A DNA stretch of 64,000 bases from Trypanosoma brucei (taxonomy: Eukaryota): the NCBI GenBank assembly GCA_000002445.1, contig CM000207.1, positions 672,001 through 736,000 of the forward strand, in the 5' to 3' direction. Below, piece after piece: positions 10,482 to 28,099 of the stretch. A model generated the notes under the pieces. It did not search any database. It was not told the origin of the DNA and was given only the letters and a program-made list of their open reading frames with translations. Position 1 is the first letter of the stretch; every line of letters starts with the position of its first letter. The translations under genes and the position numbers were made by a program.

Positions 10482-12077
10482 ATGCTTCGCATCAGCACCC
10501 CACGATTAGATGGCCCCATGGTAACGGGAGGCCCAGTTAAGGGTTTACAGGGTCGCATGCGTAGCCTAATTAAACCTAGCGTAGCGGAGCATGTTTTGCG
10601 GGACGTAGCGGTGGTACGTCAGCGTTTCGCAGAGTTGACAGACGCAGGCGTGGAGGATCCGGCTTCCACATACAAACCGTCGATTCCGCGTCCGTGGGTG
10701 AAGGCGCCTCTTTCTCGACTTTCCACCTCCGTTTCGAGGAGAGATTGGTTCCGCATCATGCAGTTCAACATCATGGCAGACGCTTGGAGTAACGGAGGCA
10801 CTACAGTGGAGAGAACGACGCCTGTACACGGTGTCCTGCCGTGGGTCCCCGGTTTCACGCGACGCGGAACGGACCCTTGTGGGTTCTACCCGTACGACCA
10901 TAGTGTGGATGAGGAGGTCCCGCCTTTTTTGCAAGAGGACATTAGGCGGGCCTACATTGTGAATGAGATTTGCTATTATGATCCCGATATTGTTTGCTTA
11001 CAGGAGGTCAACAGATCTTTTTTTAACGAAACCTTTTCTAAATACATTCGGTATCGTGGTTACGGCACGTTGTATCAATCAAGTCGCGGATATAAGGTGC
11101 GGGCCCTGCGTAGAGGCGATGACCCAACGCTGCTGCGCCACAAAGGAAAAATCGAAGAGAGGGAGGACATTGGAAATGTGATCCTTTTCCACAAGGGACG
11201 CTTCGTACCCATTTTGATGCCGGGTAAAGATCTTGTGCAGCATTTACACTTTGCTCACATTGTTGCCATGCGGGATAGGGTCACCAACATGACACTGAAT
11301 GTAGCATGCGCACAGTTTACCGCTGGAGATTCCGCTGAGGCATCGGAGATACGCCTGCACGAAGCAAGGCAGACAATGCAGATACTCGATGCTCTGAACC
11401 GAAACGACACAGATCGCTCACATATGAGTAATGTTATATGTGGGGACTTTAACAACGTTGAGGACGAAGAGCCGTGCGTGCAGTTTATGAGGGAGCGTTT
11501 GTTTTCCACATACGACGTGGTGGGCGGCCCGCGGTGGACCACCTGGTTTCATGAAGATGCCCAAAGTAATGCTCGGTATCAAAAGTATTATTCCTGCAAC
11601 CGTGCTGGATACTTCGCCACTAATGCAGCAAAGCGAGCTGAGCAGGAAGTAGCGAAGTTTACGTGGTTACGAAGTGGTGGTCTCAATGGTCGACGCCAAG
11701 ATGTCAGCGGCGGCGATTCCGCTCCACCCGGGACACGCAGTGCAACAATCTCATCACTCGATAAAGTGGTTGGTGCTAACGAACCTAACACTGCGGCGCG
11801 CACACTCGAGCGGGGTGGCACATGTGGAGATGTGTTGGTTGAACAAAAGCAGGCCCTGAAAGCAGATGGTATTATTAGGCGCACTCAAGACTTTGTGCTG
11901 TACGACCCCAAAACACTCGCACTTCACCAGGTTTTAGACGTTCCGGAGGATGAGCACATCGATAGTCAGCAGCTGCTTCCGTGCAGTGGCCATCCTTCGC
12001 ATCACCTTCATCTAGTCGTTGATGTCTCCTTCACAGATGTTTGCCCCGACGTGGGGGAAATATCTATAAAGGATTGA
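10482..12077 (+). CDS. Endonuclease/exonuclease/phosphatase (EEP) family protein, CCR4/nocturnin/PDE12-like
   Basis: IVCLQEVN and VICGDFNNV motifs are typical of Mg-dependent EEP nucleases/deadenylases. Track start at 10458 is TTG; first ATG at 10482. Confidence 0.6.
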   Translation: MLRISTPRLDGPMVTGGPVKGLQGRMRSLIKPSVAEHVLRDVAVVRQRFAELTDAGVEDPASTYKPSIPRPWVKAPLSRLSTSVSRRDWFRIMQFNIMADAWSNGGTTVERTTPVHGVLPWVPGFTRRGTDPCGFYPYDHSVDEEVPPFLQEDIRRAYIVNEICYYDPDIVCLQEVNRSFFNETFSKYIRYRGYGTLYQSSRGYKVRALRRGDDPTLLRHKGKIEEREDIGNVILFHKGRFVPILMPGKDLVQHLHFAHIVAMRDRVTNMTLNVACAQFTAGDSAEASEIRLHEARQTMQILDALNRNDTDRSHMSNVICGDFNNVEDEEPCVQFMRERLFSTYDVVGGPRWTTWFHEDAQSNARYQKYYSCNRAGYFATNAAKRAEQEVAKFTWLRSGGLNGRRQDVSGGDSAPPGTRSATISSLDKVVGANEPNTAARTLERGGTCGDVLVEQKQALKADGIIRRTQDFVLYDPKTLALHQVLDVPEDEHIDSQQLLPCSGHPSHHLHLVVDVSFTDVCPDVGEISIKD

Positions 12078-12499
12078 CGAAGCGAAGAAGGCAATGAGTC
12101 GTTGTTGAAGTTAGTGGAATGGAGGGGGCAGCTGCAGATGGAAGTGATAACGAAAAGCGTTCGCATGCCATAAGTCAGTTACATATGCATCAGTTTCAGT
12201 GCGGGGCTCGGGGGGGGCCACATTCACTGTTCATTTCGTTTTCATTACTGGTACTACCCACTCTCTTGGTGAAAAACGTTTCTCGTCCATACACCACCGA
12301 CGGTGGACAAAAATAAGACTGTCCTTTTACTCGCTACAACCCTTTTCACATCTTTAAGTGACCTAGGATAGGTACAAAGTGACCTAACAGCATAGTGATA
12401 ATTCAATTTGTGTTTGCTGTTGGAGGAAAAAAAAAATTTAAAGTGGAAAGGGGAAGGCACAGGCAAGGCAAGGCAAGCCTGAGGAGCTGCTGTCGAACA

Positions 12500-15400
12500 A
12501 TGGCCCAGTGCTTTGGAAGTGATTATGTACTCGGCAAGGCGAAACCCTCAGATGGGGAACGATGGAACCTTCTCGAGCGCGTATATGCAGACTATGAGGA
12601 GATGAATGCTCAGCAGCAGGAGATTGCAGCGCGCAAGCGTGAGCTGGATATGGAGTTCTATGACGGCAACATTGAAAAGATTGAAGAGGCGCTTCACTTC
12701 AACGAGAATCGCCGTGGCTCTCGTGAAGGGGACTGGGACACGTACGAAAAGGTGGAGCATATCGTCAAGAAGTTTGTGTACTGTCGTGCTGGAAGGGTGT
12801 TCAAAGCTAGTGAAGTCCAGGAAGTCTTGGAGGAGCGCATCCGCCTATTGGGCGATATTGAAGCTTCACAGAAGCAGCGCATCACTGCCTTGGAAACAAC
12901 GCTTAGCTCAGTTCAGAGCGAGTTGGCTGAGGTAACGCGACTTCTGTGCATGAGTGAGGCCCGAGCTAAGGCCCTCAAGGCGGAATGTGTGGCAAATACC
13001 ATGAAAGCTAGGCAGCTGCAGCGCGTGTGCGACGGCCTTAGAGGCAGTGGGAAAAAAGACGAGAGCGAGGTGTTCAGAGACATGCGCCTCCTCATTGAGG
13101 CAAACAGACAAATGGAGAAGGATTGCCAGAAACTACGCGTCGCGTTGAACATGGGCCCTGTGAGCGCGAAGAAACAGAAGACTGTGAAAGCAGCGCAAAG
13201 AGTCCGCGCGCGGCCTGTGGTCGCCCACTCGATGTCGAATTCTCGCAACGGAAGCATGGTGGAAACACTCCTAACTCACACGGAAAAGGTGGGGGAGTTG
13301 AAGTCAGAAGAAACTCTAGAGGCAAACATTGAATCTAAGGCGGATGTGGTAACTGATGCTTCACAGAAGCAAACCAAGACTCTTCCTCAGCTCACGGCAC
13401 TCACGGGAGATGCAGAGAAAAGTGTGTCAGCTGCCCAGTCCGCGGTGCGCGCAGACGACGGTGCCCCTGCTTCCGTGGAAAATAGTCTTGTTGTTTGCGG
13501 TGGTAATGGTCTTTGTGAAGTTTCGCTGGAAGGGAAGCCTGGCGACGAGACGCTTAAATTCATGTCTCAACCTAACATAACCGGGAGTTTTCCAGATCTT
13601 GATCAGTCGCAGCGGGATGTTTCCGTTTCCAGAACTATGAGCAGTAAGGCGATTTATAAACTTGAGCGTATTCAAGAGAGAGCGAGCACGTTGGCGGAGG
13701 AGGTACCTTTGTCTGATGCCCTCATGCGTGCGTTCATCAAATGTGAAAAGTTGCAGGAGCTAATGGAGTGGGAAGTTGGCAGGAGCATGGCAATGCTTGA
13801 CTATGATGCAAATGTGTCCCACAAGCACGTAAGTTTCCACAGTGCGTGTGTGGGTGCCAGCAAAAAATTCTCACAGGACGCTTCTTGTGGGGAAGAGAGG
13901 GATATGTCCATGGTTTTTAGTGGGAGAGAAGTTGCCGGAATGCCCGGAGAGTCCCTGAACACCTCCAATTCACACCTAAGCCCGGCTGCTGGCGCTTCCA
14001 GGACCGCCGTGTTGCAAGGCTCCGGAGTCTCTCCAATGAGCACCTTGATTGGTAACCAGACTTCCTTCTTTACTACTACGCAGGATGCTACGCGCACGCT
14101 TACCTCCCTGTCAGGTGATTTGGGGCACCCATTGCACTCTCTTATGGGGCAAGTTTTGCCTAATGGTCTGCTAACCGCGTCTCAGAATAGTGGGTATACG
14201 GAGATGTCCTCCGCTGCGGCGAGAGAACTAGCTGAAACGGGCGGCGGAAACGTTGACTTCAACGACCCTGGAATGCCAATACAAGGAATGGAAACTTCTT
14301 ACAAGAACGGGCTGTTGCCCCACCACGCTGCGGTTGTGTTGTCGACTCGTAAGAATTTAGCTGTTGAAGATGTCGGCGGTTTGTCCACCCGCATCAGGAC
14401 GGCAGCATTGAGTGGAAGTGATGTGAGCGGTGCGAGCGAAGGTGGGTGGAATCAGGTGGGAAGCCGCGAGGGATCTGAATGCTCCCAACTCGTGTATTCT
14501 TCTGAAGATGGTGATTCGGACAGCGAAACTCACCACCTCGGTCGCTGGGTGGATTCCCCCTCACAATTAAGTGATGAAGCTCCCTTCGAGGGAGTGGGAG
14601 TCGAAAACGCTAACACCAGGGCTAAAAAGTATTCAGCACGGGGAAGCGATAGGTCCAATATCTCTTTTGCGGGCTCCCGGAGAAGTGCCCACCGCAGCGC
14701 AGCTAGCCGCCTGACGAGTGCTGCTACCAAAGGGCGAACCCGTAATTCAACAGTCAGCTTGGCAACAGAGCAACGACTAAGCGCGAGGACCAAGAGGAGG
14801 GCTGCGAGGGGCGGGGTGAAGGTTAACAGTGCGTTTCGGGCCCTGAGTAAGGAGGTGTCCACGCTACGAGATGCATGCCATAATATGATCAACGAAATGA
14901 ACGAGATGTTTGACGTAATGGGGAAATGTGTTGATGCCCTCGAAAAGCACTCGGGCACTGGCCAGCAAGTGGCGGCAACCCGCACAAAGCAGGCCTTATC
15001 AGCTGTTGTCAAGGAGGTAGTGAAGGGGGTGGCGGAGCAAGAGGTGTTGGACCGTCTCGGGAAACAAGGCATTGTTTTGGAGCGTCACCCAGAGTCTCCT
15101 AACTTAACTGATGAGCAGTGGATGCAGAATCGGCTGTACGATGCCATTATGAAATCAACAAGTGAACACGTTGACAGGGCCCTCGTGCAAAAGGGTGAAC
15201 GCCCAAGCAAATCCCTTTGCGGTAGTCGTAGGTCATCCCTATCGGCACTCGACCAGAAGCAAGAAGGGCAGGAACGGCAACGGGAACGGGAACGGCAACG
15301 TTGGCAGAAACAAGAAGAACAGTGTCAAGGACAGGACCGCTTGTGGAAACAGGGACGAGAGCAATGGCAAAGAGAAGGGAGAGGAGGTGGAGGAGGACAG

Positions 15401-16600
15401 TGGTGGGAACGAGAAGAACACATGCACGCATCCGAGCCCGAGAATGTACAAAGGCGGTTAGCTGACTTGGGAAAAAGAAGGACTCCACGCCAGTCGGGCA
15501 CTAACCAGGGCGATTCGCACTTCTTCTCCTACCCATTTAGGGGCGATAATGAGTTGGAGGATGGATCGTACACTCTTTGGCCATCTGATCCCACTCCGCC
15601 CACAGGTGTGGACACGGGGGTGTGGGAAGAGCCACTGGAAGCAATGCGTCGAGAAATGTGGAGACTCGCTGGCCACCCCTGCGTGGACTCTGGCGATGGA
15701 AACACAGAGCAGAATCCTCGGCCACTTCATGCGCATATGAGCAAAGGGGGTGGTGGGGGTTGGAGGGAGAGGTTTTCAAGCTGGACGGTTGCTGGTGATG
15801 CGATGTTTTGTGCCCCACTTGCCGAGGAGGGTGATAGGAAGTACCAACCCCCTGTGCCGTACAAGACCGGCCCAGGATTCTTGGTTCCGCGCTTAAGGTT
15901 AGGATGTGCGAGGCTCGGGGCCACGCACGGCGCGGTAAGGAGCAACTCCTGTGAGGAGATTTTGGAGTATCTAAGACGGCTTCAGCCACCGGAGTACTCC
16001 AGGGACCTCGCGTGTCTGACACCCAGAGTCTTCAGATACGATTTTGGAAGCACAGTTTCTGACGCTAGACGGAACGTGCGGGAGGGCGTCTCTCAGGTCA
16101 AACACCATCTGCAAAGTGCGTTGTTTAATCAGGGGTTCTCCAGCGAAATACTACCGTACGCAACTGCTGCGAGGCGCTTGCAGCATGGGGGAGCCCTGCC
16201 CACGTGGATGCGTGAGGCGGTGGTGATGCTCCGAAGGGAGGAAAAGGACCGAAACCAAAAGATGGCCAAACTTATCTTCCAGAAGGTGGCAACAAATATC
16301 CGTACAAGAAGTATATTGAAGCGCGTGTGTCGGGGATCTGCTTTCGCCGCCTATCTGGTTGTTATGTGGGAGAAATGGATGGGAGGGTGGGAGAAACGCT
16401 GCGAGGCGTTACGGCATACACAGAAGGAAAGTTTGGGGCGCGTTATGGACATGGTGGTGAATGGTTTTAATGTAGTGCCACAGCAGCTCCGCGGGCCACT
16501 TGAGACACAGGAGTCTCCGTGGGTAGACGCGAGGAGGACACTCAAAGGCGCGAGCAGCTACCACTTCAGAGATGCACGGATCCCCTCGAAGGACAAATGA
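12500..16600 (+). CDS. Large hypothetical protein (about 1366 aa) with N-terminal coiled coil, Ser/Thr-rich middle and an ER/QR-rich low-complexity block
   Basis: 4.1-kb uninterrupted + strand ORF. Track start at 12395 is GTG; first ATG at 12500. A (GGAACG)n-type repeat near 15270-15330 encodes QERQRERERQR. Confidence 0.55.
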   Translation: MAQCFGSDYVLGKAKPSDGERWNLLERVYADYEEMNAQQQEIAARKRELDMEFYDGNIEKIEEALHFNENRRGSREGDWDTYEKVEHIVKKFVYCRAGRVFKASEVQEVLEERIRLLGDIEASQKQRITALETTLSSVQSELAEVTRLLCMSEARAKALKAECVANTMKARQLQRVCDGLRGSGKKDESEVFRDMRLLIEANRQMEKDCQKLRVALNMGPVSAKKQKTVKAAQRVRARPVVAHSMSNSRNGSMVETLLTHTEKVGELKSEETLEANIESKADVVTDASQKQTKTLPQLTALTGDAEKSVSAAQSAVRADDGAPASVENSLVVCGGNGLCEVSLEGKPGDETLKFMSQPNITGSFPDLDQSQRDVSVSRTMSSKAIYKLERIQERASTLAEEVPLSDALMRAFIKCEKLQELMEWEVGRSMAMLDYDANVSHKHVSFHSACVGASKKFSQDASCGEERDMSMVFSGREVAGMPGESLNTSNSHLSPAAGASRTAVLQGSGVSPMSTLIGNQTSFFTTTQDATRTLTSLSGDLGHPLHSLMGQVLPNGLLTASQNSGYTEMSSAAARELAETGGGNVDFNDPGMPIQGMETSYKNGLLPHHAAVVLSTRKNLAVEDVGGLSTRIRTAALSGSDVSGASEGGWNQVGSREGSECSQLVYSSEDGDSDSETHHLGRWVDSPSQLSDEAPFEGVGVENANTRAKKYSARGSDRSNISFAGSRRSAHRSAASRLTSAATKGRTRNSTVSLATEQRLSARTKRRAARGGVKVNSAFRALSKEVSTLRDACHNMINEMNEMFDVMGKCVDALEKHSGTGQQVAATRTKQALSAVVKEVVKGVAEQEVLDRLGKQGIVLERHPESPNLTDEQWMQNRLYDAIMKSTSEHVDRALVQKGERPSKSLCGSRRSSLSALDQKQEGQERQRERERQRWQKQEEQCQGQDRLWKQGREQWQREGRGGGGGQWWEREEHMHASEPENVQRRLADLGKRRTPRQSGTNQGDSHFFSYPFRGDNELEDGSYTLWPSDPTPPTGVDTGVWEEPLEAMRREMWRLAGHPCVDSGDGNTEQNPRPLHAHMSKGGGGGWRERFSSWTVAGDAMFCAPLAEEGDRKYQPPVPYKTGPGFLVPRLRLGCARLGATHGAVRSNSCEEILEYLRRLQPPEYSRDLACLTPRVFRYDFGSTVSDARRNVREGVSQVKHHLQSALFNQGFSSEILPYATAARRLQHGGALPTWMREAVVMLRREEKDRNQKMAKLIFQKVATNIRTRSILKRVCRGSAFAAYLVVMWEKWMGGWEKRCEALRHTQKESLGRVMDMVVNGFNVVPQQLRGPLETQESPWVDARRTLKGASSYHFRDARIPSKDK

Positions 16601-19099
16601 CGTGATTTGATGTGTACGCGTTTGCGGTGTGGACCTCAATCATGCGTCAGCAAACGTGCCCCGCCGGCGTTGGCAATATGTATTGGCTGCAACCCTCAGG
16701 TAGCATTCGCCAACTCACTCACCAACGTGAGTGTGCTTGTTTTTGTGTAACAAAAAGAGTATGTACATTTAGTTGAAGTTAGTAAACAGGAAGGGTGTGC
16801 GCGGAGTCTCATAGTGTAATTAGTAGTATGGCACACAAAAGCACTTTGGAAACGTGTGGGCGACGCACCCGTGTAAACAAGAAGTAACCGATTGCGGTTC
16901 CATGCGATGGCGGTAGGGTCGATATCATTATCAATACTATTTTTGTTTTTCGTTGTAGCTACGTCTATTCCCAATTTTCTGCTTCCCACCTTGTTTCCTC
17001 GCTGGTTTCTTTGCGCTTTGTGGTAGAGGGGAAAAGCTTCTCCCGGAGAATGGTTTTGCCACCCTTCCGCTATACGCTCACCTTACTACTTCCAGTTTCT
17101 TACTGTTATTGTGTGCGCACGTGCTCGGTACCTTTGTCCCCTTTTCCCCTGTGTATCTATCTTTAATCGGTGCACAGTTACGCCATCCCATCTTGTGGAA
17201 TTCCCTCCCCTTTGAATTAAATGCAAGATGACAGTTAGCCTTCCATTGCTCTGCTTGGTGACTGCTGCCTTTTCATACGGTGGAAGAGCTTCACCGACGA
17301 ATGAAGTTTTTCACCCCTTGGACTTACCCCTGGCCTTGTTGAAGGACTGCCAAGCACGTCCGTACGCCGTCAGGGCGTCGTCTGAAGCAGATTGCGTTAC
17401 CCGATAACAGTGAAGCTCCTGATCAACAGGGCTGCTGTGCACGGAGGGGAATGGCTATGCCGGATGATGTGGCACCTGTGCTTTAGTGTGGTGGCACTGC
17501 TCTTGCAGTTTCTGGAGCTCAGCCACTTGCGAGTTAAGAGCCAATGTCGCTAAAAAGGGGCAGGTGACAGTAGGGTGGTCGACGCTCAACTTGTTGATGG
17601 TTGTAGGAAACCAAAAGGGTGGCTTTGGCGGCCTAATGGAAGTCCGAAACGCTTCGATGGGACCCGAGTGAAATACGCATTGACAAGCGTCCAAGTTAGT
17701 GGGGAAGCCAAAACCGTCAACGAGGACATTGCACCCAACCCACCCACCCCCCCCCCGCGCTCTCCCACACAACCACACGTGCACGCATTGGGTGTCGCTC
17801 GTTTCGGATAGCAGCGCCCCTCTGTGTTTGATGGCGCGCGCTCTCGGGTGTTTGGGCGTCCTGGACAGTCACGCGCATACAAAGGATATGCACAATCCCC
17901 GACATTCCCATTGCGTTCTGAGGCGTTTTTCCAACTCGTTCCTTGTCCAACCCTTTCTACAGATTTTTTTCCCCGTCGCATGAGCAACCCACGTTAATCG
18001 TTGGAACGATACCGCATCACTGCCCGGGCGTATCACTGGGCGCCAAACGTTTATCCACCACGCGAGGTATGAGCTGTTCCGACTAAACTTCACATTATGT
18101 GTGTGTGTGTAGGGGGCGACGACTCCTCATGATTTGCTCTATTCTGCACCAACCGCGTCTCTCATTCGGTTGATGCAGTCGCTCAGCCATCCCAGATATC
18201 ATCCGAACCGTTTCGTTGCGCCAGAAGAAAAACCAAGCGGGAAATTTCTCTTGTCTCCGCGCCGCCTCCATATCTTTCCTAGCAGAAGGGGTATGAGAGA
18301 AAGCGTTGATACCGTGCGTGACGGCCCTCAAACTGCTGCGTTAAAATTGAAGTATTCACCGCTGATGCCTTTTGAATCGACAACTATATCACGGTATTAG
18401 TGCCGCACGGAGGGTGTTCCGGTTGTAGACCCGCCCCCGTAGCCGGGTAATTAGTTTCAATAAAAATTAGAGCAATAGAAAACATAATGCACTTATAGGG
18501 GCATATTCCTAACGAGCTGCACCGATCCCTTCTCCATATAGGGCGAAGGACGTTACCTTTTATACGTGTTGGTTCCGCCTTTAAAGAAAAGAGGGACGAT
18601 GCGAATTTGTTGAACGTCTCTAACCCGGACCCCACCCTTTGCCTTGTATGCCGTTTCTTTTAGAGGCCTTTCAAGCACAATCTTCATTGCAGCCCTCCCT
18701 CCTCGGAAGTCACGTGGCAGCTTACCGATCCTTCTGCGTAACTCAGCCGTCTTTCTGCCTTATCAAATATGAAAGTTTCTCCACCGCTCGGCATATCCAA
18801 TTCAGCAGAACCTTCTGTTCAGGTTTGGTGGTGGATGGCAACGGACACCTCTATTTTTCTCTTCGCACGGCGCATCTTCCCTCAGCCCACTCGAGGGATA
18901 GGGCCGTGCTTGCAACCCCGAAAACGATCCACACTAAGCTTTCCTTTTGCGGTAAGTCTTCCCCACTTTGTTACACTAACACTTGGCAGCATCCAATTCG
19001 TTATGCATAGGGTAGTCCAGAAGGTCCGGCTTTTCTTATGACTTCACTGAATGTTTAATCGACGGCTTCCCATTTCAGGTAACATTCCACTCCCCTCTT

Positions 19100-22000
19100 G
19101 CAAACTACACCCCTAACGATGATCAGCTGAGCCAACTCAACCGCATCTTCCCCGCTCTCTCCACCCGTCACGCCTGTGATCATGTTGGTTACTTGCCGTC
19201 GTGACCCCACCGCATTCTTCCAAAAAAATGAGGGAAAATGTGGCGGTGCTCGATTCCCTGCATGATCGTTTCCCTGCCGCTCCGAGTCGGGGTGTACGCA
19301 GTGCTCGGGCTATTGAATCCCACACTGTCGAGAAAGGAGTTCTCAATCTGAGGAGCGGGCGTGCTACACCTTTAAATTTCCTTTGAGGAAGCTTCGCTGT
19401 GGACACGAAAGTTTGACGGTTAAGCCCAGTGCTTTCGTTGTACATTTTTCTTTTACCTTGTTTTCAAATACCTTGACGCTCAGTGAGTATCGGGTTGCTG
19501 CCGCAAACAAATACTCTCTTTCCCTGTAAATTCCTCCGCGAAAAAAGGCTTTGTATGCTTCGAACCACTGGCAAGATGTTACTGAAGACGGGGCCTTAAT
19601 GAACGATGGTCAGCCCCCGGGTGCACCATTGTCAGGTTGGTCATGGGAAACTAATACTGGAAGTCCGGCATTCTTTTAATGCAACTGCTGTTCACCCACA
19701 GTTGTAATCATCGTAGTTGAACCGAACAGCAATCTCCGCGGAAACTCGCTTGATAGCGACTCTTCTCGATATCCAGTTGCTGCTGCCAATGCTCGCCGTC
19801 CTTTTGGGAGTGAACTGTTGACGGATACCGTTACGTAAGAGACAACTCCAAATACTTAAATTCGTGGGCGGCAGCATGTGATCCAGCGAATCCAAAGCAT
19901 GAGCTTGATGCACCAATGCGACTAGCACAAGCCGGCACTCCCCCAGCGCTTCGGGTTCCAAGCAGCTGCCGCAGGTGGCCGTTGTCTAAGGCTTTGGTTG
20001 TAGCCCATTTTCTTGCTCGCGTAGTTTGTTGTCTAAAAGGCAGTGGAGCCTTTGGCTGATAGTTCACTCCATCAACTTTCGCACCCGGTGGTGGTTGTTT
20101 CCGGCCAAAATTATGCTTTCTCAGTAGCTGGTGTGTTCACCATCAGAACTGGTATGACGATCCCACGTCCCTACTTTCCCCGAACTTTTCTACTCTGCAG
20201 ACACCGGCCGCCCAACTACCCTGGAGACCACAGCCCGCCAACCCCAACTGCGTCAGCCGCTCACAGTGTGTGCCGCCCTCTCCCGCCGGAAATCCTTTCA
20301 GCTCCTCCAAATACTGCAACCGTCCCGCTTGGTAGATGGGGATGTCCCCCGGCACTGGACACCTGAGTTTTCGGAACTTCACGAAGTGGTTGCGGGTTGA
20401 TAACATTGAGTAAGCAGGGGACGGTTACCAGCACACGCAGGTAGCTGCTTGAATGGGCAGAAACAAAGCAGTGACCGTTCTGCGCTCATGGCTCAGGCCG
20501 TCAGATTAGTAGACTGGCATATGATGGCGAAGGTGCATGCACCCAGACCGCTCAGAACTATGCCGATGCTTCGAGTGGATCAGGCCACCATCACGGATTG
20601 TGGACGAGCCGAGCACTTCGCTGACCTCTGCTCGATGCCGGAACTCTGACATCCTGACTCACACCCTCCAACGTCGACTAGGAAGAAAGCTAACGAATAC
20701 TAACTGACCGCGACGGCGGGGCCCAAGAGTGTCCCGAAACTGTCACCAAGCGACTCAGCAACCGGACCCGACTATGTGCACGACGAGGTACTGCAACAAC
20801 TCGGCAGAACAGCGCAGAATGTTGTTCTGAGGCTATTCAATGAGAGCCTACGAACGGGAGTCGTGCCGCCTGCATGGAAGACTGGTGTTATCATCCCCAT
20901 CCTGAAGGCCGGAAAAAAGGCGGAGGACCTCGATTCTTACAGGCCTGTGACGCTCACGAGCTGTCTCAGTAAAGTCATGGAGCGCATAATTGCCACGAGA
21001 CTTAGAGACACTGTTGAGTCCCAGCTGGCGCCGCAGCAATCAGGCTTTCGCCCCGGATGCTCAACGCTCGAACAACTCCTGCACGTCCGCGCTGCCCTCT
21101 GCCGTCCCACGCACCAATCTCGTACAGGTGCTGTATTCGTCGACCACGCTAAGGCATTCAATACAGTAGACCACGACAAAATTGCGAGGGAAATGCACAG
21201 AATGAAAGTATCACCCCACATTGTGAAGTGGTGTGTATCATTTCTGAGTAACCGAACTGGAAGAGTGAGATTCAAGGAGAAGCTTTCCAGAAGCAGAACA
21301 TTTGAGCGAGGAGTGCCACAAGGAACTGCCCTTGGCCCAATCATGTTCATTATTGTCATGAACTCGTTGAGCCAACGCCTTGCAGAAGTGCCGTTACTGC
21401 AGCACGGATTCTTTGCAGACGACCTGACGATACTTGCGAGGCACACAGAGAGGGATGTCATCAACCACACACTACAATGCGGCCTAAACGTGGCGTTACA
21501 GTGGTCAAAAGAGTACTTCATGTCTGTCAACGTAGCGAAAACAAAGTGCACACTCTTCGGGTGTATAGAGCGCCACCCCCTTACATTACAACTGGACGGC
21601 GAAAGAATAGGAGCTGACAGGACACCGAACCTTCTAGGAGTAACATTCCAGTGTCTGCAAGGGATGGCAACACATGCGGCCGAAACGAGACGCAAGATGG
21701 ACTTCCGACTACTGCAGATAGCAGCCATCTCAGCTTCTACATGGGGACCAAGACGACAAGTGTTGAGAGCTTTTTATCTAGCACTCGTACAGGCACACAC
21801 CATGTATGGCATTGAGGTATGGTACTGGGACGCTTCGGAACGAAGTCGCGACCTCCTTGCATCAGCACAACACAAAGCCAGTCGCATCACAGCCGGCATA
21901 CCGCATGGGACGCGCAAAGAGGACTCTCTGCTGGAAGCAAACCTCCTGCCGCTCAAGACGACCACTCTTGTGCGCAGCATGAAATTCATGCTGATGTGTG

Positions 22001-23400
22001 AGTCACGAGGCGGATGTTTGCGGCGTAGTGCTGAGGAAGTATACCGCAGCAAACACCCAGTCAGAGTCCTACATTCCCGCATCATGCGGTCCTACCCCCA
22101 CCTCCGCATTGAGCCACGCGAACACCCACTAGAGACATCGACGCTCCGCCACAGCTACCGACCGCTATTTCACACGCAGATAAAGCCTGTGTGCGCTGAT
22201 AACCCTGACGATATCAAAAAGGAAGCTTCCGAGAAATGGGCAGAAGGCGGTTCGTACAAGTGGGCGCGCACTATGAGGTGTGGGCCGGTGGGTTTGTGTT
22301 TGTTTGTGAGGAGTCTTTTGCAGCCGCGATATTAAACGCTGAAAAGAACTCATGTTTAGGACATGGAGGGGGAGAGGCTCGCTTGCGAACAGTTGCAGTA
22401 CGGTATCTCTCCCGCCTGAATTGCGCCCGTGGAAAGTGATAGAGATTTTCCCAAAGTGCAAGAGGACGCCGAGCAGACCGTCGATTTTTAGGGACCCTCC
22501 TTGTCCCTTTACCGTGCTAGAAAGAGACCCACTGATTATTATCAACACGCTCCTGCGAGAACTATGGCGGCTGAGCGCAAAAATGCGGGCGCAGGAGGGT
22601 GAGCATGGGGCTGCAGTTCGTATTTACCAACCGTGTCGTGACGCAGAATGGCGCGTGCGGCGAACTTTTGAACATCGATTACAATACGCCCACGCCGAGC
22701 GAGGAGTGGATTCCGGATATTGTGGTTTACGTGAAACGCCTGTTATTTTCTGAGGAGGGACATGCGGATGCGCCCCGGTGCTGGATCGCCGGAACGCAAC
22801 TCCTAAGAAAACTCGAGGGAGCGGTGACTCAAGAGGAAGAGACAGCGTTGTCGCGTTTCCGTGTTGGCGTTATCTCTTGGCATTATGGATGTTTGGTACC
22901 CGAAATAAACCCACAAGTGACTCCACAACGCCACAGGTGTGATCCACAGCTTCCCTTCAGACTATCCAATACTCCAGCCGCCAAATTGCCCACGGCTTCG
23001 AACCCATAAAGCATTTCGCACATGATTGGTCCTGTTAAGTACACTGAATGTGGCAGATTGTACCGGTGTCGGGTGAGCGGTTTTGCACACATGGTCAACA
23101 AGCGCAACTTTGTACGAACGGAAGGCCTCCAGAGGATAATATGCGGCGACGCCCCACAACTGGTGGATGCGCCTCTAAATTCCTCATTAACGGAAGTTTC
23201 ACTAACGACTGCAAACGCTTGACGACCCGCGACACGGAAAACGAAGGAAGTGAGGATGTTCCGTGCGACGTTTGTGAATTCCTACTCGCAGCTGGGGGCC
23301 GCCCGCCGCTCAGAAGGCAGCTGACACACGGCATAGGCGCTGGCAGCTGTGCGTGAAGAAGCGACGGGACGAGGACGAAGCACAAAGGGAAGGTAACCGT
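19100..23400 (+). mobile_element. Degenerate non-LTR (ingi/L1Tc-clade, DIRE-like) retroelement; boundaries approximate
   Basis: Central 1.6-kb RT ORF. Flanking it are frame-shifted short + strand ORFs in all three frames (22352-23356) and short ORF fragments upstream (19.2-20.7 kb). No long ORFs on either strand. Confidence 0.5.
20704..22335 (+). pseudogene. Reverse-transcriptase domain ORF of non-LTR retrotransposon, truncated and frame-disrupted
   Basis: RT motifs are present: YRPVTLTSCLSKVMERIIATRL, GFRPGCST, FVDHAKAFNTVDH, and the FADD box (GFFADDLTILA). The reported start at 20776 is GTG, with an in-frame TAA at 20701, so there is no ATG. No endonuclease domain lies in frame upstream. 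Confidence 0.7.
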
Positions 23401-23987
23401 GAGTCGGTCGACCGTGCTACGCGGCAGTGCGTTTGTGCTGTGAGTTTGCGGCGAGTTGTGTCCGACGCACTAGTTTCCCAGGACCTTGCGATCGTCCGTG
23501 GGAAATAGGAGAGGGTTGAAGTGTGTCCCTATGGGGAATGGTGGCGTCTGCTAGTTTTTGTCTTCCTTTTACTGCGTTATAGTGTCAGTCTGAGGTGGTG
23601 ACCATCCCCATCAGGCATCTGTTTGGTTACCGGTTGCACAGCCTTGGCACTAAGGGTGCTGCGGGGGTATTTCCATCTCTTTAATCTTACTTGTATGACT
23701 CGAGTCTTTGACTTCTTTCTTTTTGTCGTTTGATCTGTGATTGAATCTTTGCCGAGACAAAAGGTGCGTGTTCCAACGATCATCAACCACGGCGTTGCGC
23801 GGTGACTTGGTCAGTCGTTGTCCGGGAGGGGGGGGGGTGTCGGCGCGCGTGGTGTTGTGCTTTTGCACTTCTCCTTGCTGAGAGGACAAGACGTAGCTTT
23901 TGACCTATGTGCTCTGCACGTCAGTGGGTGGTTCTCTGATTTGACTGGGGGCATATTGGTGGTACTTCCCCTCATGAGGCGCTTCCG

Positions 23988-24345
23988 GAGAATATGAAGC
24001 ACCTATGGTTGTGAGATTGTTTAGTGGTAATAGTTATAATTTTCTTTTGTGTTCTTGTCACCGGTCAGTTCCGTTAGTGAGGAGTAGTTGCGCTCGTACA
24101 GACCCGTTGGTAATTGTTGTGAATTTGGTGCTCAGGGCTCCATGCGGCACTGGGGGCGAGGGCTCGTCATTCAGAGGATGTCGTATACTAAAGGGCAGGC
24201 AACGCTGTGCGAGATCACAATCGTTTTAGCGATTCTTGTTGGAAGTATTTATGGAGTCTTATGACACTGGGTATGGCTGGTATCATTCTGTGTTACCCTG
24301 TAGCCTACTGGTCGTTCATCATGGCCTACCTTGTTGCCGTAGGCA
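23988..24345. repeat. Copy A of a 358-bp perfect direct repeat
   Basis: Identical to 26827-27184 by direct comparison; divergence begins immediately outside both ends. Confidence 0.85.
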
Positions 24346-24886
24346 GCACTATAAAACGTGATCAAAAGGTTGCTGCTGCAGCTGGTTGTTTTATGTGGAC
24401 GGAGTGTGCCGCATAGTTTGAATAGCAACGTTTTATATCGCTTCGTTCAGCTTACACTCTTATTTTTTTCGATGACTGAAGAACGGTCTATCGGGGTATC
24501 CACTTAGTAGTTCATATATGTCGTACTACGCATATATTCATTTTTAAAATAAAAAACTGCGTCTAATATCGTTGAATTCCATGTTCTCTTTTAGTTCGTT
24601 GACTATATCGGGGAGAGTTTCACTTGTGGTTCGGTGCATGTGTGCCCCCTTAATAATTAGTAGTGATTTTTAAAAAATATTGACTCTGTCTCACTCTTCT
24701 TCTCTCTCTGTATGTGACCCTTTAATGTGTTTCTTGTCCCTGCATTTCCGGGTAGTTTTCATCATAGTTATTTAAACTTTATATTTTCGTTTCATTAATC
24801 TAATCAGCTGAAAATTAAACCTTTTTTTTTTTTAAAAGGGGTGTAGACAAATCAACTGTGAATTTATTCATTTATTGGGGCAACCG

Positions 24887-25372
24887 ATGCCTACTCCTCG
24901 GGAAACTGTCGTTGCCTTTTTGACACAGGCATGCTGTGGGACCATCGTGGCGCTTCACCGCATGGGCGGTATGGAGGTGATGTTGTATAAAGAGCAACTT
25001 GTTGTTATGCTTACGAGGTACTTTAATAGCTGCTGGAATTCTCTCCTTAGCGGAGATGATCCGTATGTTGTTGAGTCGTTTAATATGATGAAACATGATA
25101 ATCCTGGGTGCGTTATGAGGTATCTCTTTTCCGTCGGGACGTCCGTACTTCCCGACGAACCCCCCCAGGAAATAGCTCGCTATTCTCCCGAAGACACTGA
25201 CGACCTTGAAGCAGCGCGTGTGACAATTTCTGAGACGCTGCAACAGCTTCTCGCTGAACGGATAGCCGTCGATCCATTTCAACATTCCTGTGAGGGTTTA
25301 TCATTGAGTGCGGAGCGGACGGCGTGGAGTGAAAAAGGTTGTCCACCGCAAAATTTCTTTGAAATTTCGTGA
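24887..25372 (+). CDS. Hypothetical protein (161 aa)
   Basis: + strand ORF between the two repeat copies. Track start at 24875 is TTG; first ATG at 24887. Confidence 0.4.
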   Translation: MPTPRETVVAFLTQACCGTIVALHRMGGMEVMLYKEQLVVMLTRYFNSCWNSLLSGDDPYVVESFNMMKHDNPGCVMRYLFSVGTSVLPDEPPQEIARYSPEDTDDLEAARVTISETLQQLLAERIAVDPFQHSCEGLSLSAERTAWSEKGCPPQNFFEIS

Positions 25373-25759
25373 TGACGGGATTTCTCATCGTCGTTTCCTT
25401 TTTGCTACACTTCCTTTTGTTGGCGCTCTCGTATTTGTTTTCTTTGGGGAGGGGGGGGGGATGGATGACAGGTAAAAACGTATGTCGTGACAGCGAAGTT
25501 TTTTTTTTATTAATTGTTGAAGTGTATATTTTTCCTCTTGCTTTTCTCCAATGTTTAAAGCTACTTTTTTTTTTTTACTATGTCTCTTCAACTGTTCCTC
25601 AGGGTGTGGCGTAGGAGACCACCGTATGCGGGCGTCGTTTGGTTCTATTACTGTAGCCGAGCTGATCGCTGCGGTATATAGTTTACTGTGTTGTCGGCAC
25701 TTTTTACTACATTCGATTGGTTTTATTTAGGTAGAATAGAGGTAAGTCGACCAATCTGT

Positions 25760-26809
25760 ATGTTTCCGTTTTACTCATGCGACCAGGGTAAAGGTGCACA
25801 CGAGGTGCAAAGTCCACCAGGTGATACCATAAGCTCGATCCGTTTCTCCCCTGCAGGATGTCCGCTGTTGCTTGTAGGCGCAACATCATGGGACAAAAGT
25901 TGTCGTGTATGGCAGGTTGATAATTCGTCCAGAAGCGCAGCCATTAGTTCCAAACCGTTAAGCCTTGCAGAAAGTGGCGCCCCAATTTTGGATATGTCGT
26001 TTTCGGAAGATGGCAGGGTGTTCTTTGGTGGGTGTGACAAGAGCGCAACGATGTGGAATCTAACGACTGGTCAAAAAACCGTTGTCGCATCCCACGACCT
26101 TCCGATTAGTTGCCTGTCCTACGTGTTGTCACCAACCGGAGGTGACATGTTAATAACAGGAAGTTGGGATGGTAAGTTACGATACTGGGACATGAAGCAG
26201 CCGCGACCTGTTAAGGAGGATTTACTTGGTGAGCCGATATTTGCACTTGATGCGCAAAGATCGTTTCCTATGGCCGCATGCGTCACCGGACGCAAAGTGC
26301 ACGTTTTTAACATGCAGTTTATGTCGAAGGTGATGGAACTGGACCCCCCCAAAATGATGAAGTTCAGTTTACGATGTGTTGCTTGTTCACCTCAGCATGA
26401 TGGGGTTGCCGTTGGGAGCTCGGAGGGGAGGGTATCGTTCATTCCTTTGAGACAAGAAAGTGGCTGCACATTTAAAGCTCATGTCGTTGAAGAGAACAAT
26501 GTTTTCTATATGCACCAAACGAATTTCTGCTCGATAGATTCGAAGACCGGACGAATGATAACTGGTGGTGGGGATGGTCGCATTGCCGTCTGGGATTATA
26601 AAAAGAGGTGCAACGTATGCTATGAAAATGATCCGAAGTTGCCAAACAGGAATAACTCGATTTCTGCCGGAGACATTAGTGCCGACTGCTCTTTGCTTGC
26701 GTACGCACGTAGCTATGATTGGGCAATGGGAAAGACGCGCGCGATTACGAACGAGCCTCATACAATACACATAAGATCTGCTAATCCTACACAGCTGAAA
26801 GCAAGATAG
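25760..26809 (+). CDS. RAE1: Rae1/Gle2-family WD40 protein (poly(A)+ RNA export factor)
   Basis: Collinear matches to Rae1 blocks: EVQSPPGDTISSIRFSP, TSWDKSCRVWQV, CDKSATMWNL, TGSWDGKLRYWD, FKAH.., GGGDGRIAVWD, AYARSYDWAMG. Track start at 25688 is GTG; first ATG at 25760. Confidence 0.85.
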   Translation: MFPFYSCDQGKGAHEVQSPPGDTISSIRFSPAGCPLLLVGATSWDKSCRVWQVDNSSRSAAISSKPLSLAESGAPILDMSFSEDGRVFFGGCDKSATMWNLTTGQKTVVASHDLPISCLSYVLSPTGGDMLITGSWDGKLRYWDMKQPRPVKEDLLGEPIFALDAQRSFPMAACVTGRKVHVFNMQFMSKVMELDPPKMMKFSLRCVACSPQHDGVAVGSSEGRVSFIPLRQESGCTFKAHVVEENNVFYMHQTNFCSIDSKTGRMITGGGDGRIAVWDYKKRCNVCYENDPKLPNRNNSISAGDISADCSLLAYARSYDWAMGKTRAITNEPHTIHIRSANPTQLKAR

Positions 26810-26826
26810 TTATTCTATTTTTCGAA

Positions 26827-27184
26827 GAATATGAAGCACCTATGGTTGTGAGATTGTTTAGTGGTAATAGTTATAATTTTCTTTTGTGTTCTTGTCACCG
26901 GTCAGTTCCGTTAGTGAGGAGTAGTTGCGCTCGTACAGACCCGTTGGTAATTGTTGTGAATTTGGTGCTCAGGGCTCCATGCGGCACTGGGGGCGAGGGC
27001 TCGTCATTCAGAGGATGTCGTATACTAAAGGGCAGGCAACGCTGTGCGAGATCACAATCGTTTTAGCGATTCTTGTTGGAAGTATTTATGGAGTCTTATG
27101 ACACTGGGTATGGCTGGTATCATTCTGTGTTACCCTGTAGCCTACTGGTCGTTCATCATGGCCTACCTTGTTGCCGTAGGCAGT
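26827..27184. repeat. Copy B of the 358-bp perfect direct repeat, starting 18 bp after the RAE1 stop
   Basis: Identical to 23988-24345. Confidence 0.85.
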
Positions 27185-27436
27185 ACTAAATTTAAAAGAA
27201 TTCCTTCGGCTGATAATATACTGAATCTTTTTGCTGTTCAGTTTATTTTGCACTGTCTCTCATTTTGGTGCGGCGCGGCGTATGCTTCACTGTTATGAAT
27301 CATGTCTTTTCCTTTTTTTTTTTGCAATATTTTTCGACATCGTTTGTGCCGTTGTTGGGTACAGGTTTTAGGTGTTAATCCGTTGCTGAGTAAATTTGGT
27401 TCTTAAATTTCGATTACTACGACAAGTAGCTGAGCG

Positions 27437-28099
27437 ATGAGTGAGTCTAGTGCGACCAAAAAGCATGTATATGGATATGAACTTTACAGTAAAAATGTTC
27501 ACCAATATCCATCTATTACTGATGTTAAAACCGTAAAGGGTGCAATCGCAGGAAACATTCATGACTACCTCAATCATTTGGGTGCATTTGAAGGGAATGC
27601 GCGTCGAGAGCGTGGGGAGGTATTGGCGTATTCGCTTTTGGCTGGTGCCCTCTCTCTGGCCTGCGCGATATATTTCGCCAAAGACGTATTACTGCCTTAC
27701 AAGTTGCTTACATTATCTCTCATTGGGGTTACAGGTGCTGCCACCCTGTGTGCTTACGTTTGTGACTGCAGACAGAAATCGGACAATATTGCCTTCCTGG
27801 CCACGTGCTCAGCTTCTACCGAGGCGAAGGACTACCTTCGTACCTTAAAAGGGCATCGGGTTTGCATTCGCTTGGGTGAGGTACCCAACTCGTCAGCGCT
27901 TACCATGGAAGCGCAGGTGGTTGGGCCTCCTTGTTTCTTCGGCGCTCCAGAAGTGCACTCATCATCGTCGAAGGTGGTGCCATACGGACGTTACTTCACT
28001 AAAAGCGGGTACTTTTTCCCTCCTCCGCTCATGAATGACGTGGATAATCTTCTAAGCTCATTAAAGACCTCGACCTCAAAAAAGAAACGGCAATCCTAA
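27437..28099 (+). CDS. Hypothetical protein, 220 aa, with two predicted TM helices
   Basis: ATG start. Hydrophobic segments VLAYSLLAGALSLACAIYFA and LLTLSLIGVTGAATLCAYV. Confidence 0.4.
   Translation: MSESSATKKHVYGYELYSKNVHQYPSITDVKTVKGAIAGNIHDYLNHLGAFEGNARRERGEVLAYSLLAGALSLACAIYFAKDVLLPYKLLTLSLIGVTGAATLCAYVCDCRQKSDNIAFLATCSASTEAKDYLRTLKGHRVCIRLGEVPNSSALTMEAQVVGPPCFFGAPEVHSSSSKVVPYGRYFTKSGYFFPPPLMNDVDNLLSSLKTSTSKKKRQS

What the first reader, a model, noticed from the sequence alone, without database searches (positions are those of the whole stretch)
23988..27184. 358-bp perfect direct repeat bracketing a 2.5-kb two-gene segment (hypothetical 161-aa gene + RAE1)
23988-24345 and 26827-27184 are identical, with sharp boundaries and unrelated sequence immediately outside. 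Copy B begins 18 bp after the RAE1 stop codon. Copy A lies 0.9 kb upstream of the 161-aa gene and just 3' of the degenerate retroelement. Perfect identity argues for a very recent duplication, recombination or gene-conversion tract, or a remnant of a tandem duplication of the hyp-RAE1 pair. Alternatively it is a shared UTR or regulatory element. Such repeats can mediate deletion or amplification of the intervening genes.
Basis: seen in the sequence. Interest (0 to 1): 0.5.

Follow-up and report, generated by a model that had tools for sequence, protein, structure and literature searches.

The report
Gene-conversion-homogenised repeat flanking RAE1 cassette
A real 363-bp direct repeat brackets two genes (a hypothetical gene and the mRNA-export factor RAE1/GLE2) on a Trypanosoma brucei chromosome; it is an ordinary leftover or seed of a tandem duplication, and its two copies are kept identical by gene conversion, not because the duplication is recent.

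Summary
The repeat is real. Window 23989-24346 is base-for-base identical to 26826-27183 (358 bp, spacing 2837 bp). In sister strains the identity runs to 363 bp. The edges are sharp and these are the only two copies in the window.

The window is Trypanosoma brucei-group DNA. Three other T. brucei-group assemblies carry the same two copies with the same unique flanks.

Three sites differ between strains, but in every genome both copies carry the same state. The duplication therefore predates strain divergence, and the copies are homogenised by non-allelic gene conversion or unequal crossing-over. Perfect identity does not mean recency.

Copy B starts 17 nt after the RAE1/GLE2 stop codon and by position makes up most of the presumed RAE1 3' UTR. 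Copy A sits 535 bp upstream of the conserved 161-aa gene, at a synteny breakpoint next to a 3'-truncated ingi/DIRE remnant.

T. vivax and T. melophagium have no such repeat. The only T. congolense contig reads RAE1-hyp161-RAE1, which implies a tandem array with a period near 2.8 kb.

The best reading is the one-unit state, (R-X)1-R, of a tandem-duplication cassette. No RNA family, conserved small ORF or mobile-element hallmark was found. This is ordinary for T. brucei, so interest is low.

The parts
23989..24351 (+). Repeat copy A (R_A), 363 bp. Positions 23989-24346 are exactly identical to copy B. Position 24347 (C) is a private SNP of this strain.
26826..27188 (+). Repeat copy B (R_B), 363 bp. 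It starts 17 nt after the RAE1 stop codon. By position it is most of the presumed RAE1/GLE2 3' UTR.
24352..24886 (+). Spacer between copy A and the 161-aa gene ('A-down'). It is unique sequence with polypyrimidine tracts (about 24690-24750 and 24823-24834) followed by AG dinucleotides. This is the presumed trans-splice region of the 161-aa gene.
   Evidence: sequence read directly; signal assignment is inference
24887..25372 (+). 161-aa conserved hypothetical gene with no Pfam domain. Orthologues lie immediately next to RAE1 in T. congolense (65% identity), T. melophagium (53%) and T. vivax (27%, partial).
25760..26809 (+). RAE1/GLE2 (poly(A) export protein, WD40), 349 aa. The identical protein is present in T. 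b. gambiense, T. b. equiperdum and T. equiperdum.
   Evidence: The gene name GLE2 for Tb927.9.3760 comes from the literature. Equating the window gene with Tb927.9.3760 is my inference.
27189..27436 (+). Unique spacer between copy B and the next gene ('B-down'). It holds a polypyrimidine tract at 27305-27335 and an AG at about 27363, the presumed trans-splice signals of the 220-aa gene.
   Evidence: sequence; inference for signals
20338..23474 (+). Degenerate ingi/DIRE-type non-LTR retroelement remnant. Nucleotide similarity to a paralogous element is 93% over 20755-22239, and protein-level collinearity runs to about 23474. The last ~900 nt of an ingi (C2H2 zinc-finger block and A-rich end) have no counterpart.
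23475..23988 (.). Unassigned 514 bp between the last detectable retroelement similarity and copy A. There is no RAE1 or hyp161 pseudogene trace here.
27437..28099 (+). Downstream neighbour, a 220-aa conserved hypothetical gene. It follows RAE1 directly in T. vivax and T. melophagium as well.

Best explanation
The window is Trypanosoma brucei-group chromosomal DNA. A 363-bp segment R is the first ~363 nt of the 3' flank of the mRNA-export gene RAE1/GLE2 and, by position, most of its 3' UTR. A second copy of R lies 2837 bp upstream, ahead of the neighbouring 161-aa gene. The locus therefore reads R-[spacer-hyp161-RAE1]-R, which is a tandem repeat of period 2837 bp with 1.13 copies. This is the one-unit state of a tandem-duplication cassette. 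It is either what remains after an upstream hyp161-RAE1 unit was lost at a retroelement-marked rearrangement breakpoint, or the seed from which arrays form by unequal crossing-over. The two copies are old, predating the divergence of T. brucei subspecies. Recurrent non-allelic gene conversion or unequal crossing-over keeps them identical. Shown: the repeat is real, its boundaries are conserved across strains, and it evolves in concert. Also shown: it is absent from T. vivax and T. melophagium, and T. congolense has RAE1-hyp161-RAE1 adjacency. Inferred: the 3' UTR assignment, a past second cassette in the T. brucei lineage, and the repeat's role as a substrate for copy-number change. I put about 0.85 on 'local segmental duplication homogenised by conversion'. 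I put about 0.55 on the specific 'relic or minimal state of a hyp161-RAE1 tandem array'.
For: (1) There is exact 358-bp identity with sharp edges, and only two copies in 64 kb. (2) The same two copies with the same unique flanks occur in three independent assemblies. These are T. b. gambiense DAL972 chr 9 (L001) and T. b. equiperdum (L002). In T. equiperdum OVI the contigs break inside R (L003, L019). (3) Concerted evolution: unit positions 6, 16 and 30 are A/T/T in both copies of the window (and in T. equiperdum OVI, whose copy B is covered only for its first 32 nt). They are T/A/G in both copies of L001 and L002. Within-genome differences are 0-1 per 363 bp, against 3-4 between strains. (4) Between-strain divergence of R (0.8-1.1%) equals that of neighbouring non-coding DNA (0.3-1.2%). 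Purifying selection therefore does not explain the identity. (5) The only T. congolense contig carrying these genes (L013, 2780 bp) reads RAE1 (from about codon 22)-845-bp spacer-hyp161-425-bp spacer-start of RAE1 (13 codons). That is an almost complete circular permutation of a ~2.8-kb unit, and needs a tandem array of at least 2 units. Its RAE1-to-hyp161 spacer (845 bp) is close to the 915 bp (17 + 363 + 535) that a T. brucei array would have. (6) T. vivax (two assemblies) and T. melophagium have hyp161-RAE1-p220 with no flanking repeat. (7) The same window holds a 6488-bp tandem array with two full units plus a 459-bp partial third copy. That is the same (R-X)n-R architecture with n = 2. 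(8) Literature: in T. brucei arrays the terminal UTRs are identical to the internal intergenic sequence but curtailed, and arrays evolve in concert by unequal crossing-over and gene conversion (PMC1855330). Single-copy versus tandem differences between subspecies are common, and one chr 9 duplication sits just downstream of an ingi insertion (PMC2854126).
Against: No trace of a second RAE1 or hyp161 copy survives upstream of copy A, so a former full second unit in T. brucei is inferred, not seen. T. brucei and T. congolense intergenic spacers are not alignable at all, even the orthologous hyp161-to-RAE1 spacer. Orthology of the T. congolense array junction with R + A-down therefore cannot be shown, and the T. 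congolense duplication could be independent. The T. congolense evidence rests on one small unplaced contig. The three diagnostic sites lie within 25 bp and may reflect a single mutation cluster plus one or two conversion events. The 3' UTR assignment rests on positional rules, not mapped poly(A) sites. Genome-wide copy number of R could not be measured with these tools.
Confidence: 0.65

Rival explanations
1. Stand-alone duplication of just the 363-bp segment. For example, a templated insertion during repair of the break that created the synteny breakpoint upstream of hyp161 could have copied nearby sequence 2.8 kb away. No second hyp161-RAE1 unit would ever have existed in the T. brucei lineage. 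The copies are then homogenised by gene conversion.
For: Copy A lies exactly at the point where synteny with T. melophagium and T. vivax ends, next to a truncated DIRE. No pseudogene remnant of a second cassette is present. Both edges are sharp.
Against: T. congolense shows that this very cassette does exist as RAE1-hyp161-RAE1, with a spacer of similar length. The (R-X)n-R layout is the standard layout of T. brucei arrays. This rival and the best explanation converge if T. congolense expanded from an ancestral R-X-R.
Confidence: 0.2
2. Retroelement-mediated origin. Copy A would be a 5'-truncated retrocopy of the RAE1 mRNA 3' end, or a 3' transduction carried by the adjacent ingi/DIRE.
For: Copy A lies downstream of, and in the same orientation as, a non-LTR retroelement remnant. 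R corresponds to a presumed 3' UTR. Its right edge could coincide with a poly(A) site (ACTA|AA at 27188).
Against: There is no poly(A) tail after copy A; the sequence there is TAAAACGTGATCAAAAGG. No target-site duplication is visible around copy A (read directly). The DIRE lacks its own last ~900 nt, and 514 unassigned bp separate it from copy A, so a read-through transcript from this element is not a good fit. R has no similarity to ingi/DIRE sequence.
Confidence: 0.07
3. R is retained in two copies because it is functional. It could be a regulatory 3' UTR module, or it could carry the shared 5' part of two small membrane-protein genes (51 aa at 24261-24416 and 66 aa at 27098-27298, which share their first 30 residues).
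For: Gene callers predicted the 51- and 66-aa ORFs in some assemblies. The shared N-terminus is hydrophobic. R contains a polypyrimidine tract followed by AG (about 24034-24068) that could serve as a splice acceptor (read directly).
Against: An exhaustive search of 1.84 billion representative proteins found only the ORF itself and its 51-aa sister. tblastn found nothing in the T. congolense, T. vivax or T. melophagium loci. R diverges between strains as fast as neighbouring non-coding DNA. There was no Rfam match even at E <= 1. Folding energy is unremarkable (z = -0.88).
Confidence: 0.05
4. Ordinary dispersed repeat (SIDER/RIME-like element or LTR pair), or an assembly artefact.
For: Direct repeats of a few hundred bp bracketing 2.5 kb superficially resemble LTRs or dispersed retroposons. 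Contigs of a short-read assembly break at R.
Against: The internal genes are conserved cellular genes, syntenic in other trypanosomes. There are no TG...CA termini, no target-site duplication and no poly(A). R has no similarity to ingi/DIRE. There are only two copies in the window, and exact look-ups of the two ORFs that extend from R into its flanks return only this locus. Three independent assemblies agree on both copies and their flanks, and some distinguish the copies by one SNP.
Confidence: 0.03

Closest known systems
Trypanosoma brucei tandem gene arrays / segmental duplications evolving in concert (Jackson 2007, PMC1855330; Jackson et al. 2010, PMC2854126)
   Same: The repeat is direct, on the coding strand of a polycistronic unit. 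The unit contains whole genes plus intergenic sequence. The terminal flank is identical to the 'internal' intergenic sequence over a curtailed, UTR-sized length. Paralogous copies are more alike within a genome than orthologous copies are between genomes. An ingi-type element lies immediately upstream, as in the chr 9 example of PMC2854126.
   Different: Only 1.13 units are present in every T. brucei-group assembly examined, so no gene is actually duplicated. What evolves in concert is a 363-bp non-coding segment, not a coding sequence. An array state is seen only in T. congolense, and there only through one small contig.
The 6488-bp RPS7e / hypothetical / isochorismatase tandem array in the same window (41320-54752)
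   Same: It has the same (R-X)n-R layout: full units followed by a short partial copy (459 bp there, 363 bp here). Identity is near-perfect (99.7%), and it is on the same strand and the same chromosome region.
   Different: That array has n = 2 full units, and its unit boundary cuts into a coding sequence. The finding has n = 1, and its boundaries lie in non-coding DNA.
Repeat-mediated gene amplification and deletion in Leishmania (direct or inverted repeats flanking genes giving circular or linear amplicons; recalled from Ubeda et al. 2014, not read here)
   Same: Two direct repeats of a few hundred bp bracket a short gene segment. They could in principle recombine to amplify or excise it.
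   Different: The Leishmania repeats are mostly members of dispersed SIDER families present genome-wide, whereas R appears to be a local two-copy sequence. No amplicon or excision product was observed here. T. brucei is not known to use this route routinely (my knowledge, untested).
LINE-mediated processed retrocopies / 3' transduction (ingi, L1Tc)
   Same: A piece corresponding to an mRNA 3' end lies downstream of a non-LTR element in the same orientation.
   Different: There is no poly(A) tail and no target-site duplication. The retroelement's 3' end is missing, and a 514-bp gap separates it from copy A.

Membership tests
T. brucei tandem array / segmental duplication under concerted evolution | Head-to-tail (direct) copies on the same strand with a constant period | tested here: met
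   There are two copies in direct orientation with spacing 2837 bp. The same layout is present in L001 and L002.
T. brucei tandem array / segmental duplication under concerted evolution | Two or more full copies of the gene-containing unit | tested here: not met
   Only 1.13 units are present in the window, L001 and L002. There is no second RAE1 or hyp161 copy or pseudogene. The feature is met only in T. congolense, via the RAE1-hyp161-RAE1 contig L013.
T. brucei tandem array / segmental duplication under concerted evolution | Paralogous copies within a genome more alike than orthologous copies between genomes | tested here: met
   Positions 6/16/30 co-vary in both copies per genome. There are 0-1 differences within genomes against 3-4 between strains. 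R is not more constrained than its flanks.
T. brucei tandem array / segmental duplication under concerted evolution | Terminal flank identical to the internal intergenic sequence over a curtailed, UTR-sized stretch | tested here: inconclusive
   R_B (363 bp after the RAE1 stop) equals R_A ahead of hyp161, as described for array termini in PMC1855330. With n = 1, however, there is no internal intergenic sequence to compare.
Dispersed retroposon (ingi/RIME/DIRE/SIDER) | Sequence similarity to the ingi/DIRE family | tested here: not met
   BLASTN of window 16000-25000 against locus L020, which holds three ingi/DIRE copies including a 3' end, matches only 20755-22239. Nothing in R matches.
Dispersed retroposon (ingi/RIME/DIRE/SIDER) | Poly(A) or A-rich tail and a target-site duplication | tested here: not met
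   The flanks were read directly: left of A is ...GCGCTTCCGG and right of A is TAAAACGTGATC. Left of B is ...TATTTTTCGA and right of B is AATTTAAAAGAA.
Dispersed retroposon (ingi/RIME/DIRE/SIDER) | Many copies dispersed in the genome | not testable with these tools
   No T. brucei whole genome is searchable by DNA here. Indirect evidence: two copies in 64 kb, exact ORF look-ups return only this locus, and short-read contigs traverse R from RAE1 in 6 of 6 samples.
LTR retrotransposon (R copies as LTRs) | Internal gag/pol-type genes, TG...CA LTR termini, and a target-site duplication outside the pair | tested here: not met
   The internal genes are RAE1 and a conserved hypothetical gene, syntenic in T. 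vivax and T. melophagium without repeats. R starts AGAATATG and ends GTACTA. The outer flanks are unrelated.
Processed retrocopy of the RAE1 mRNA 3' end | The copy ends at the mRNA poly(A) site and is followed by a poly(A) tract | tested here: not met
   There is no poly(A) tract after copy A. The position of the RAE1 poly(A) site itself is not testable here.
Structured non-coding RNA gene (snoRNA and similar) | Match to a described RNA family, or exceptional folding | tested here: not met
   Rfam at gathering threshold on the whole window gave 0 hits. Rfam at E <= 1 on 23900-24900 gave 0 hits. The fold z-score was -0.88.

The most novel reading that the evidence does not exclude
R-X-R is an actively cycling dosage module for the mRNA-export factor RAE1/GLE2. 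Unequal crossing-over between the two R copies would expand and contract the hyp161-RAE1 cassette among salivarian trypanosome strains and species: n = 1 in the assembled T. brucei genomes and n >= 2 in T. congolense. On this reading the five short-read contigs that join RAE1 -> R -> copy-A downstream sequence (L004, L005, L007-L009) would be true array junctions, not graph artefacts. Copy number of a nuclear export factor would then be a selectable variable in an organism that lacks gene-specific transcriptional control.
Probability: 0.2. Interest if true: 0.4.

Novelty: new member of a known kind. Interest (0 to 1): 0.2.

Why it matters
The main value is as a worked caution: perfect identity of a repeat does not date it. 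Here a 363-bp non-coding segment has stayed identical in two places across T. brucei subspecies divergence because the copies convert each other. For annotation, the repeat explains why short-read assemblies break or mis-join at the RAE1 3' end. It also explains why RNA-seq reads in the RAE1 3' UTR will multi-map. For biology, it marks hyp161-RAE1/GLE2 as a cassette that can change copy number, as the T. congolense contig suggests. That is a modest but testable point about dosage control in organisms with polycistronic transcription.

Tried and rejected
(1) Rfam on the whole window at gathering threshold, and on 23900-24900 at E <= 1, gave nothing.

(2) Folding of the RAE1 3' flank gave z = -0.88, which is unremarkable.

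(3) I tested the small ORFs as real genes. The exhaustive representative search returned only the 66-aa ORF and its 51-aa sister. tblastn found nothing in other trypanosome loci. Exact look-ups returned only this locus. Rejected as conserved genes.

(4) I tried to align the T. congolense RAE1-to-hyp161 spacer to R, A-down and B-down to prove orthology of the array junction. No spacer aligns, not even the orthologous hyp161-to-RAE1 spacer. The test is uninformative.

(5) I searched for decayed homology outside the repeat edges and found none. I searched for RAE1 or hyp161 pseudogene remnants upstream of copy A and found none.

(6) I tried to define the DIRE 3' end to test 3' transduction. Similarity stops at about 23474, and the ingi zinc-finger block and A-rich tail are missing. 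This weakens transduction, but the exact end is undefined.

(7) The six Logan contigs (ERR7929156-64) were examined as evidence for an array. Five join RAE1 -> R -> A-down and one joins RAE1 -> R -> B-down. Any de Bruijn assembler must choose or clip branches at a 363-bp two-copy repeat. The runs also look like RNA-seq: two contigs start exactly at the G after the AG at 25609-25610, and exact look-ups of hyp161 and MPC returned no Logan contigs. I therefore do not count them as evidence for an array. A paper search for the run accession found nothing.

(8) The exact look-up of the 220-aa neighbour returned nothing on record.

(9) The bacterial promoter/terminator scan gave chance-level results and is irrelevant for a trypanosome.

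(10) The hyp161 homologue search returned only T. brucei-group and T. congolense proteins, because of the word prefilter. More distant orthologues were found by tblastn in the fetched loci instead.
Full report
**Observation**

The repeat finder, direct reading and a self-BLAST agree. Window 23989-24346 is identical to 26826-27183 (358 bp) in direct orientation, with a start-to-start spacing of 2837 bp. The length, the perfection and the sharp edges are right.

BLAST extends the match to 369 bp at 99.2%. The single mismatch just after the perfect block (24347 C versus 27184 T) is private to copy A of this strain. Every other genome examined has T in both copies, so the unit is really 363 bp (23989-24351 / 26826-27188).

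Flanks of 100-600 bp outside the unit show no residual similarity (z between -1.2 and 1.9 against shuffles). The window holds only these two copies.

**Organism and genes**

The 349-aa WD40 protein encoded at 25760-26809 is found residue-for-residue in three assemblies. These are T. b. gambiense DAL972 chromosome 9 (FN554972.1, L001), T. b. equiperdum (GCA_003543875.1, L002) and T. equiperdum OVI (L003). It is also present in short-read assemblies of runs ERR7929156-64 (L004-L009).

Sources name it poly(A) export protein / mRNA export factor. The literature calls Tb927.9.3760 GLE2; equating the window gene with that identifier is my inference.

The window is about 99% identical to L001 and L002. 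It therefore comes from a further T. brucei-group strain, probably TREU927, though I could not check this.

The '161-aa hypothetical gene' (24887-25372) is a real conserved gene. Orthologues lie next to RAE1 in T. congolense (65% identity), T. melophagium (53%) and T. vivax (27% over 128 aa). It has no Pfam domain. Downstream follow a 220-aa gene and the mitochondrial pyruvate carrier, in the same order as in T. vivax and T. melophagium.

**Where the copies sit**

Copy B begins 17 nt after the RAE1 stop codon. It ends about 120 nt before the polypyrimidine tract (27305-27335) and AG (about 27363) that should serve trans-splicing of the 220-aa gene. In trypanosomes, polyadenylation is coupled to the downstream splice signal and usually falls one to a few hundred nt upstream of it (established knowledge). 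Copy B should therefore make up most of the RAE1 3' UTR. This is inference from position, not from mapped sites.

In all six Logan contigs the RAE1 coding sequence runs without a break into the repeat. These runs look like RNA-seq. Two contigs start exactly at the G following the AG at 25609-25610, just after a polypyrimidine tract. Exact look-ups of the neighbouring hyp161 and MPC proteins returned no Logan contigs. If they are RNA-seq, they show that R is transcribed contiguously with RAE1. I could not confirm the data type.

Copy A ends 535 bp before the hyp161 ATG. The spacer between them carries its own polypyrimidine tracts and AGs.

Upstream of copy A lies a degenerate ingi/DIRE-type element:
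- RT similarity spans 20338-22239.
- Nucleotide identity to a paralogous element on another chromosome is 93% over 20755-22239.
- Collinear protein-level similarity runs to about 23474.
- The last ~900 nt of an ingi (zinc-finger block and A-rich tail, seen in L020) have no counterpart.
- 514 bp (23475-23988) remain unassigned.

Synteny with T. melophagium and T. vivax starts exactly at hyp161. In T. melophagium, hyp161 is the first gene after a divergent strand-switch region. Copy A therefore lies at a rearrangement breakpoint.

**Age and mode of evolution**

The two copies, with the same unique flanks, are present in L001 and L002. In T. equiperdum OVI the contigs break inside the repeat (L003, L019). 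The duplication therefore predates the divergence of these lineages.

At unit positions 6, 16 and 30, the window has A/T/T in both copies, and so does T. equiperdum OVI as far as its contigs reach. L001, L002 and the Logan contigs have T/A/G, in both copies wherever both are assembled. Within a genome the copies differ at 0-1 sites. Between strains the orthologous copies differ at 3-4 sites.

Between-strain divergence of R (0.8-1.1%) matches that of neighbouring non-coding DNA (0.3-1.2%) and exceeds that of coding sequence (0-0.45%). Selective constraint therefore does not explain the identity.

The pattern requires non-allelic gene conversion or unequal crossing-over, that is, concerted evolution. 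The three sites are clustered, so the minimum is one mutation cluster plus one or two exchange events.

**Origin**

T. vivax (two assemblies) and T. melophagium show hyp161-RAE1-p220 with no flanking repeat.

In T. congolense IL3000, both genes occur only on one 2780-bp contig. It reads:
- RAE1 from about codon 22 to the stop codon;
- an 845-bp spacer;
- hyp161;
- a 425-bp spacer;
- 'MFSGYLRAPCQNK', the start of another RAE1.

This is an almost complete circular permutation of a ~2.8-kb unit, and it requires RAE1 on both sides of hyp161. The simplest reading is a tandem array collapsed by the assembler. A hypothetical T. brucei array would have a RAE1-to-hyp161 spacer of 17 + 363 + 535 = 915 bp, close to the 845 bp seen in T. 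congolense.

The same window contains a 6488-bp array (41320-54752) with two full units and a 459-bp partial third copy. That is the same (R-X)n-R layout. Jackson (2007) reports that terminal UTRs of T. brucei arrays are identical to the internal intergenic sequence but curtailed, and that arrays evolve in concert.

I therefore read the finding as the n = 1 state of such a cassette. It is either a relic after loss of an upstream unit at the DIRE-marked breakpoint, or a seed for expansion. I could not prove a former second unit in T. brucei:
- No pseudogene trace remains upstream of copy A.
- T. brucei and T. congolense spacers are unalignable even where they are orthologous.

**Rivals**

- A stand-alone 363-bp templated duplication at the breakpoint remains possible (about 0.2).
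- A retrocopy or 3' transduction is weakened by the absent poly(A) tail and target-site duplication, the truncated DIRE 3' end and the 514-bp gap (about 0.07).
- A functional small-ORF or regulatory element lacks support. The 66-aa ORF has no relatives among 1.84 billion representative proteins other than its 51-aa sister. There is no Rfam hit and the fold is ordinary.
- A dispersed-repeat or LTR reading fails the tests that could be run, but genome-wide copy number could not be measured.
- An assembly artefact is excluded by three concordant assemblies.

**The Logan junction contigs**

Five contigs join RAE1 -> R -> copy-A downstream sequence, and one joins RAE1 -> R -> copy-B downstream sequence. 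These could be true array junctions. However, a de Bruijn assembler must clip or choose branches at a 363-bp two-copy repeat, and homopolymer tracts lie about 150 nt outside both alternative branches. I treat these contigs as ambiguous.

**Verdict**

The feature is real and well explained, and it is an ordinary kind of feature for T. brucei. The only mildly interesting lead is possible copy-number cycling of the RAE1/GLE2 cassette.

Noticed in passing
window 41320-54752 (also 56268-56978): A 6488-bp tandem array has two full units at 99.7% identity plus a 459-bp partial third copy (54295-54752). A 711-bp piece of the unit recurs at 56268-56978. Each unit carries ribosomal protein S7e, a 361-aa hypothetical gene and an isochorismatase-family gene. 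The unit starts inside the 3' end of the 318-aa DNA-polymerase-beta-thumb ORF (40597-41553).
   Followed up: partly
L013 (T. congolense IL3000 CAEQ01002284.1) 1-2780: This unplaced 2780-bp contig is an almost exact circular permutation of a RAE1-hyp161 unit. It starts at about RAE1 codon 22 and ends at codon 13 of another RAE1, which implies a collapsed tandem array. It is the only contig on record that carries either gene for this species.
   Followed up: partly
window ~20338-24886; L014 7595-9168; L011 742-9185: Synteny with T. melophagium and T. vivax begins exactly at hyp161. In T. melophagium, hyp161 opens a plus-strand gene cluster after a divergent strand-switch region. In T. brucei the same point is preceded by a DIRE remnant and same-strand genes, so it is a retroelement-marked synteny breakpoint.
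   Followed up: partly
window 24261-24416 and 27098-27298: Two small ORFs (51 and 66 aa) start inside the repeat. They share a hydrophobic 30-residue N-terminus and then diverge in the unique flanks. Some gene callers predict them. No homologues exist outside the T. brucei group.
   Followed up: yes
L004-L009 (Logan ERR7929156-64): Five of six short-read contigs join RAE1 -> repeat -> copy-A downstream sequence. L007 and L008 both begin exactly after the AG at window 25609-25610, which looks like a trans-splice site. L005 ends with 16 nt (CGCTGCCAGAGGGTAC) that match nothing in the window. The data type (RNA or DNA) is unresolved.
   Followed up: partly
L020 (T. b. equiperdum CM010677.1) 7249-15263: Large ingi/DIRE fragments lie in inverted, tail-to-tail arrangement at about 99% identity (7296-10200 versus 15263-12358, and 7249-9610 versus 12257-9897). 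This is a recent complex retroelement rearrangement on another chromosome.
   Followed up: no
window 62001-64000: G+C drops to 0.376 in the last 2 kb of the window, against about 0.50 elsewhere. I did not examine it.
   Followed up: no
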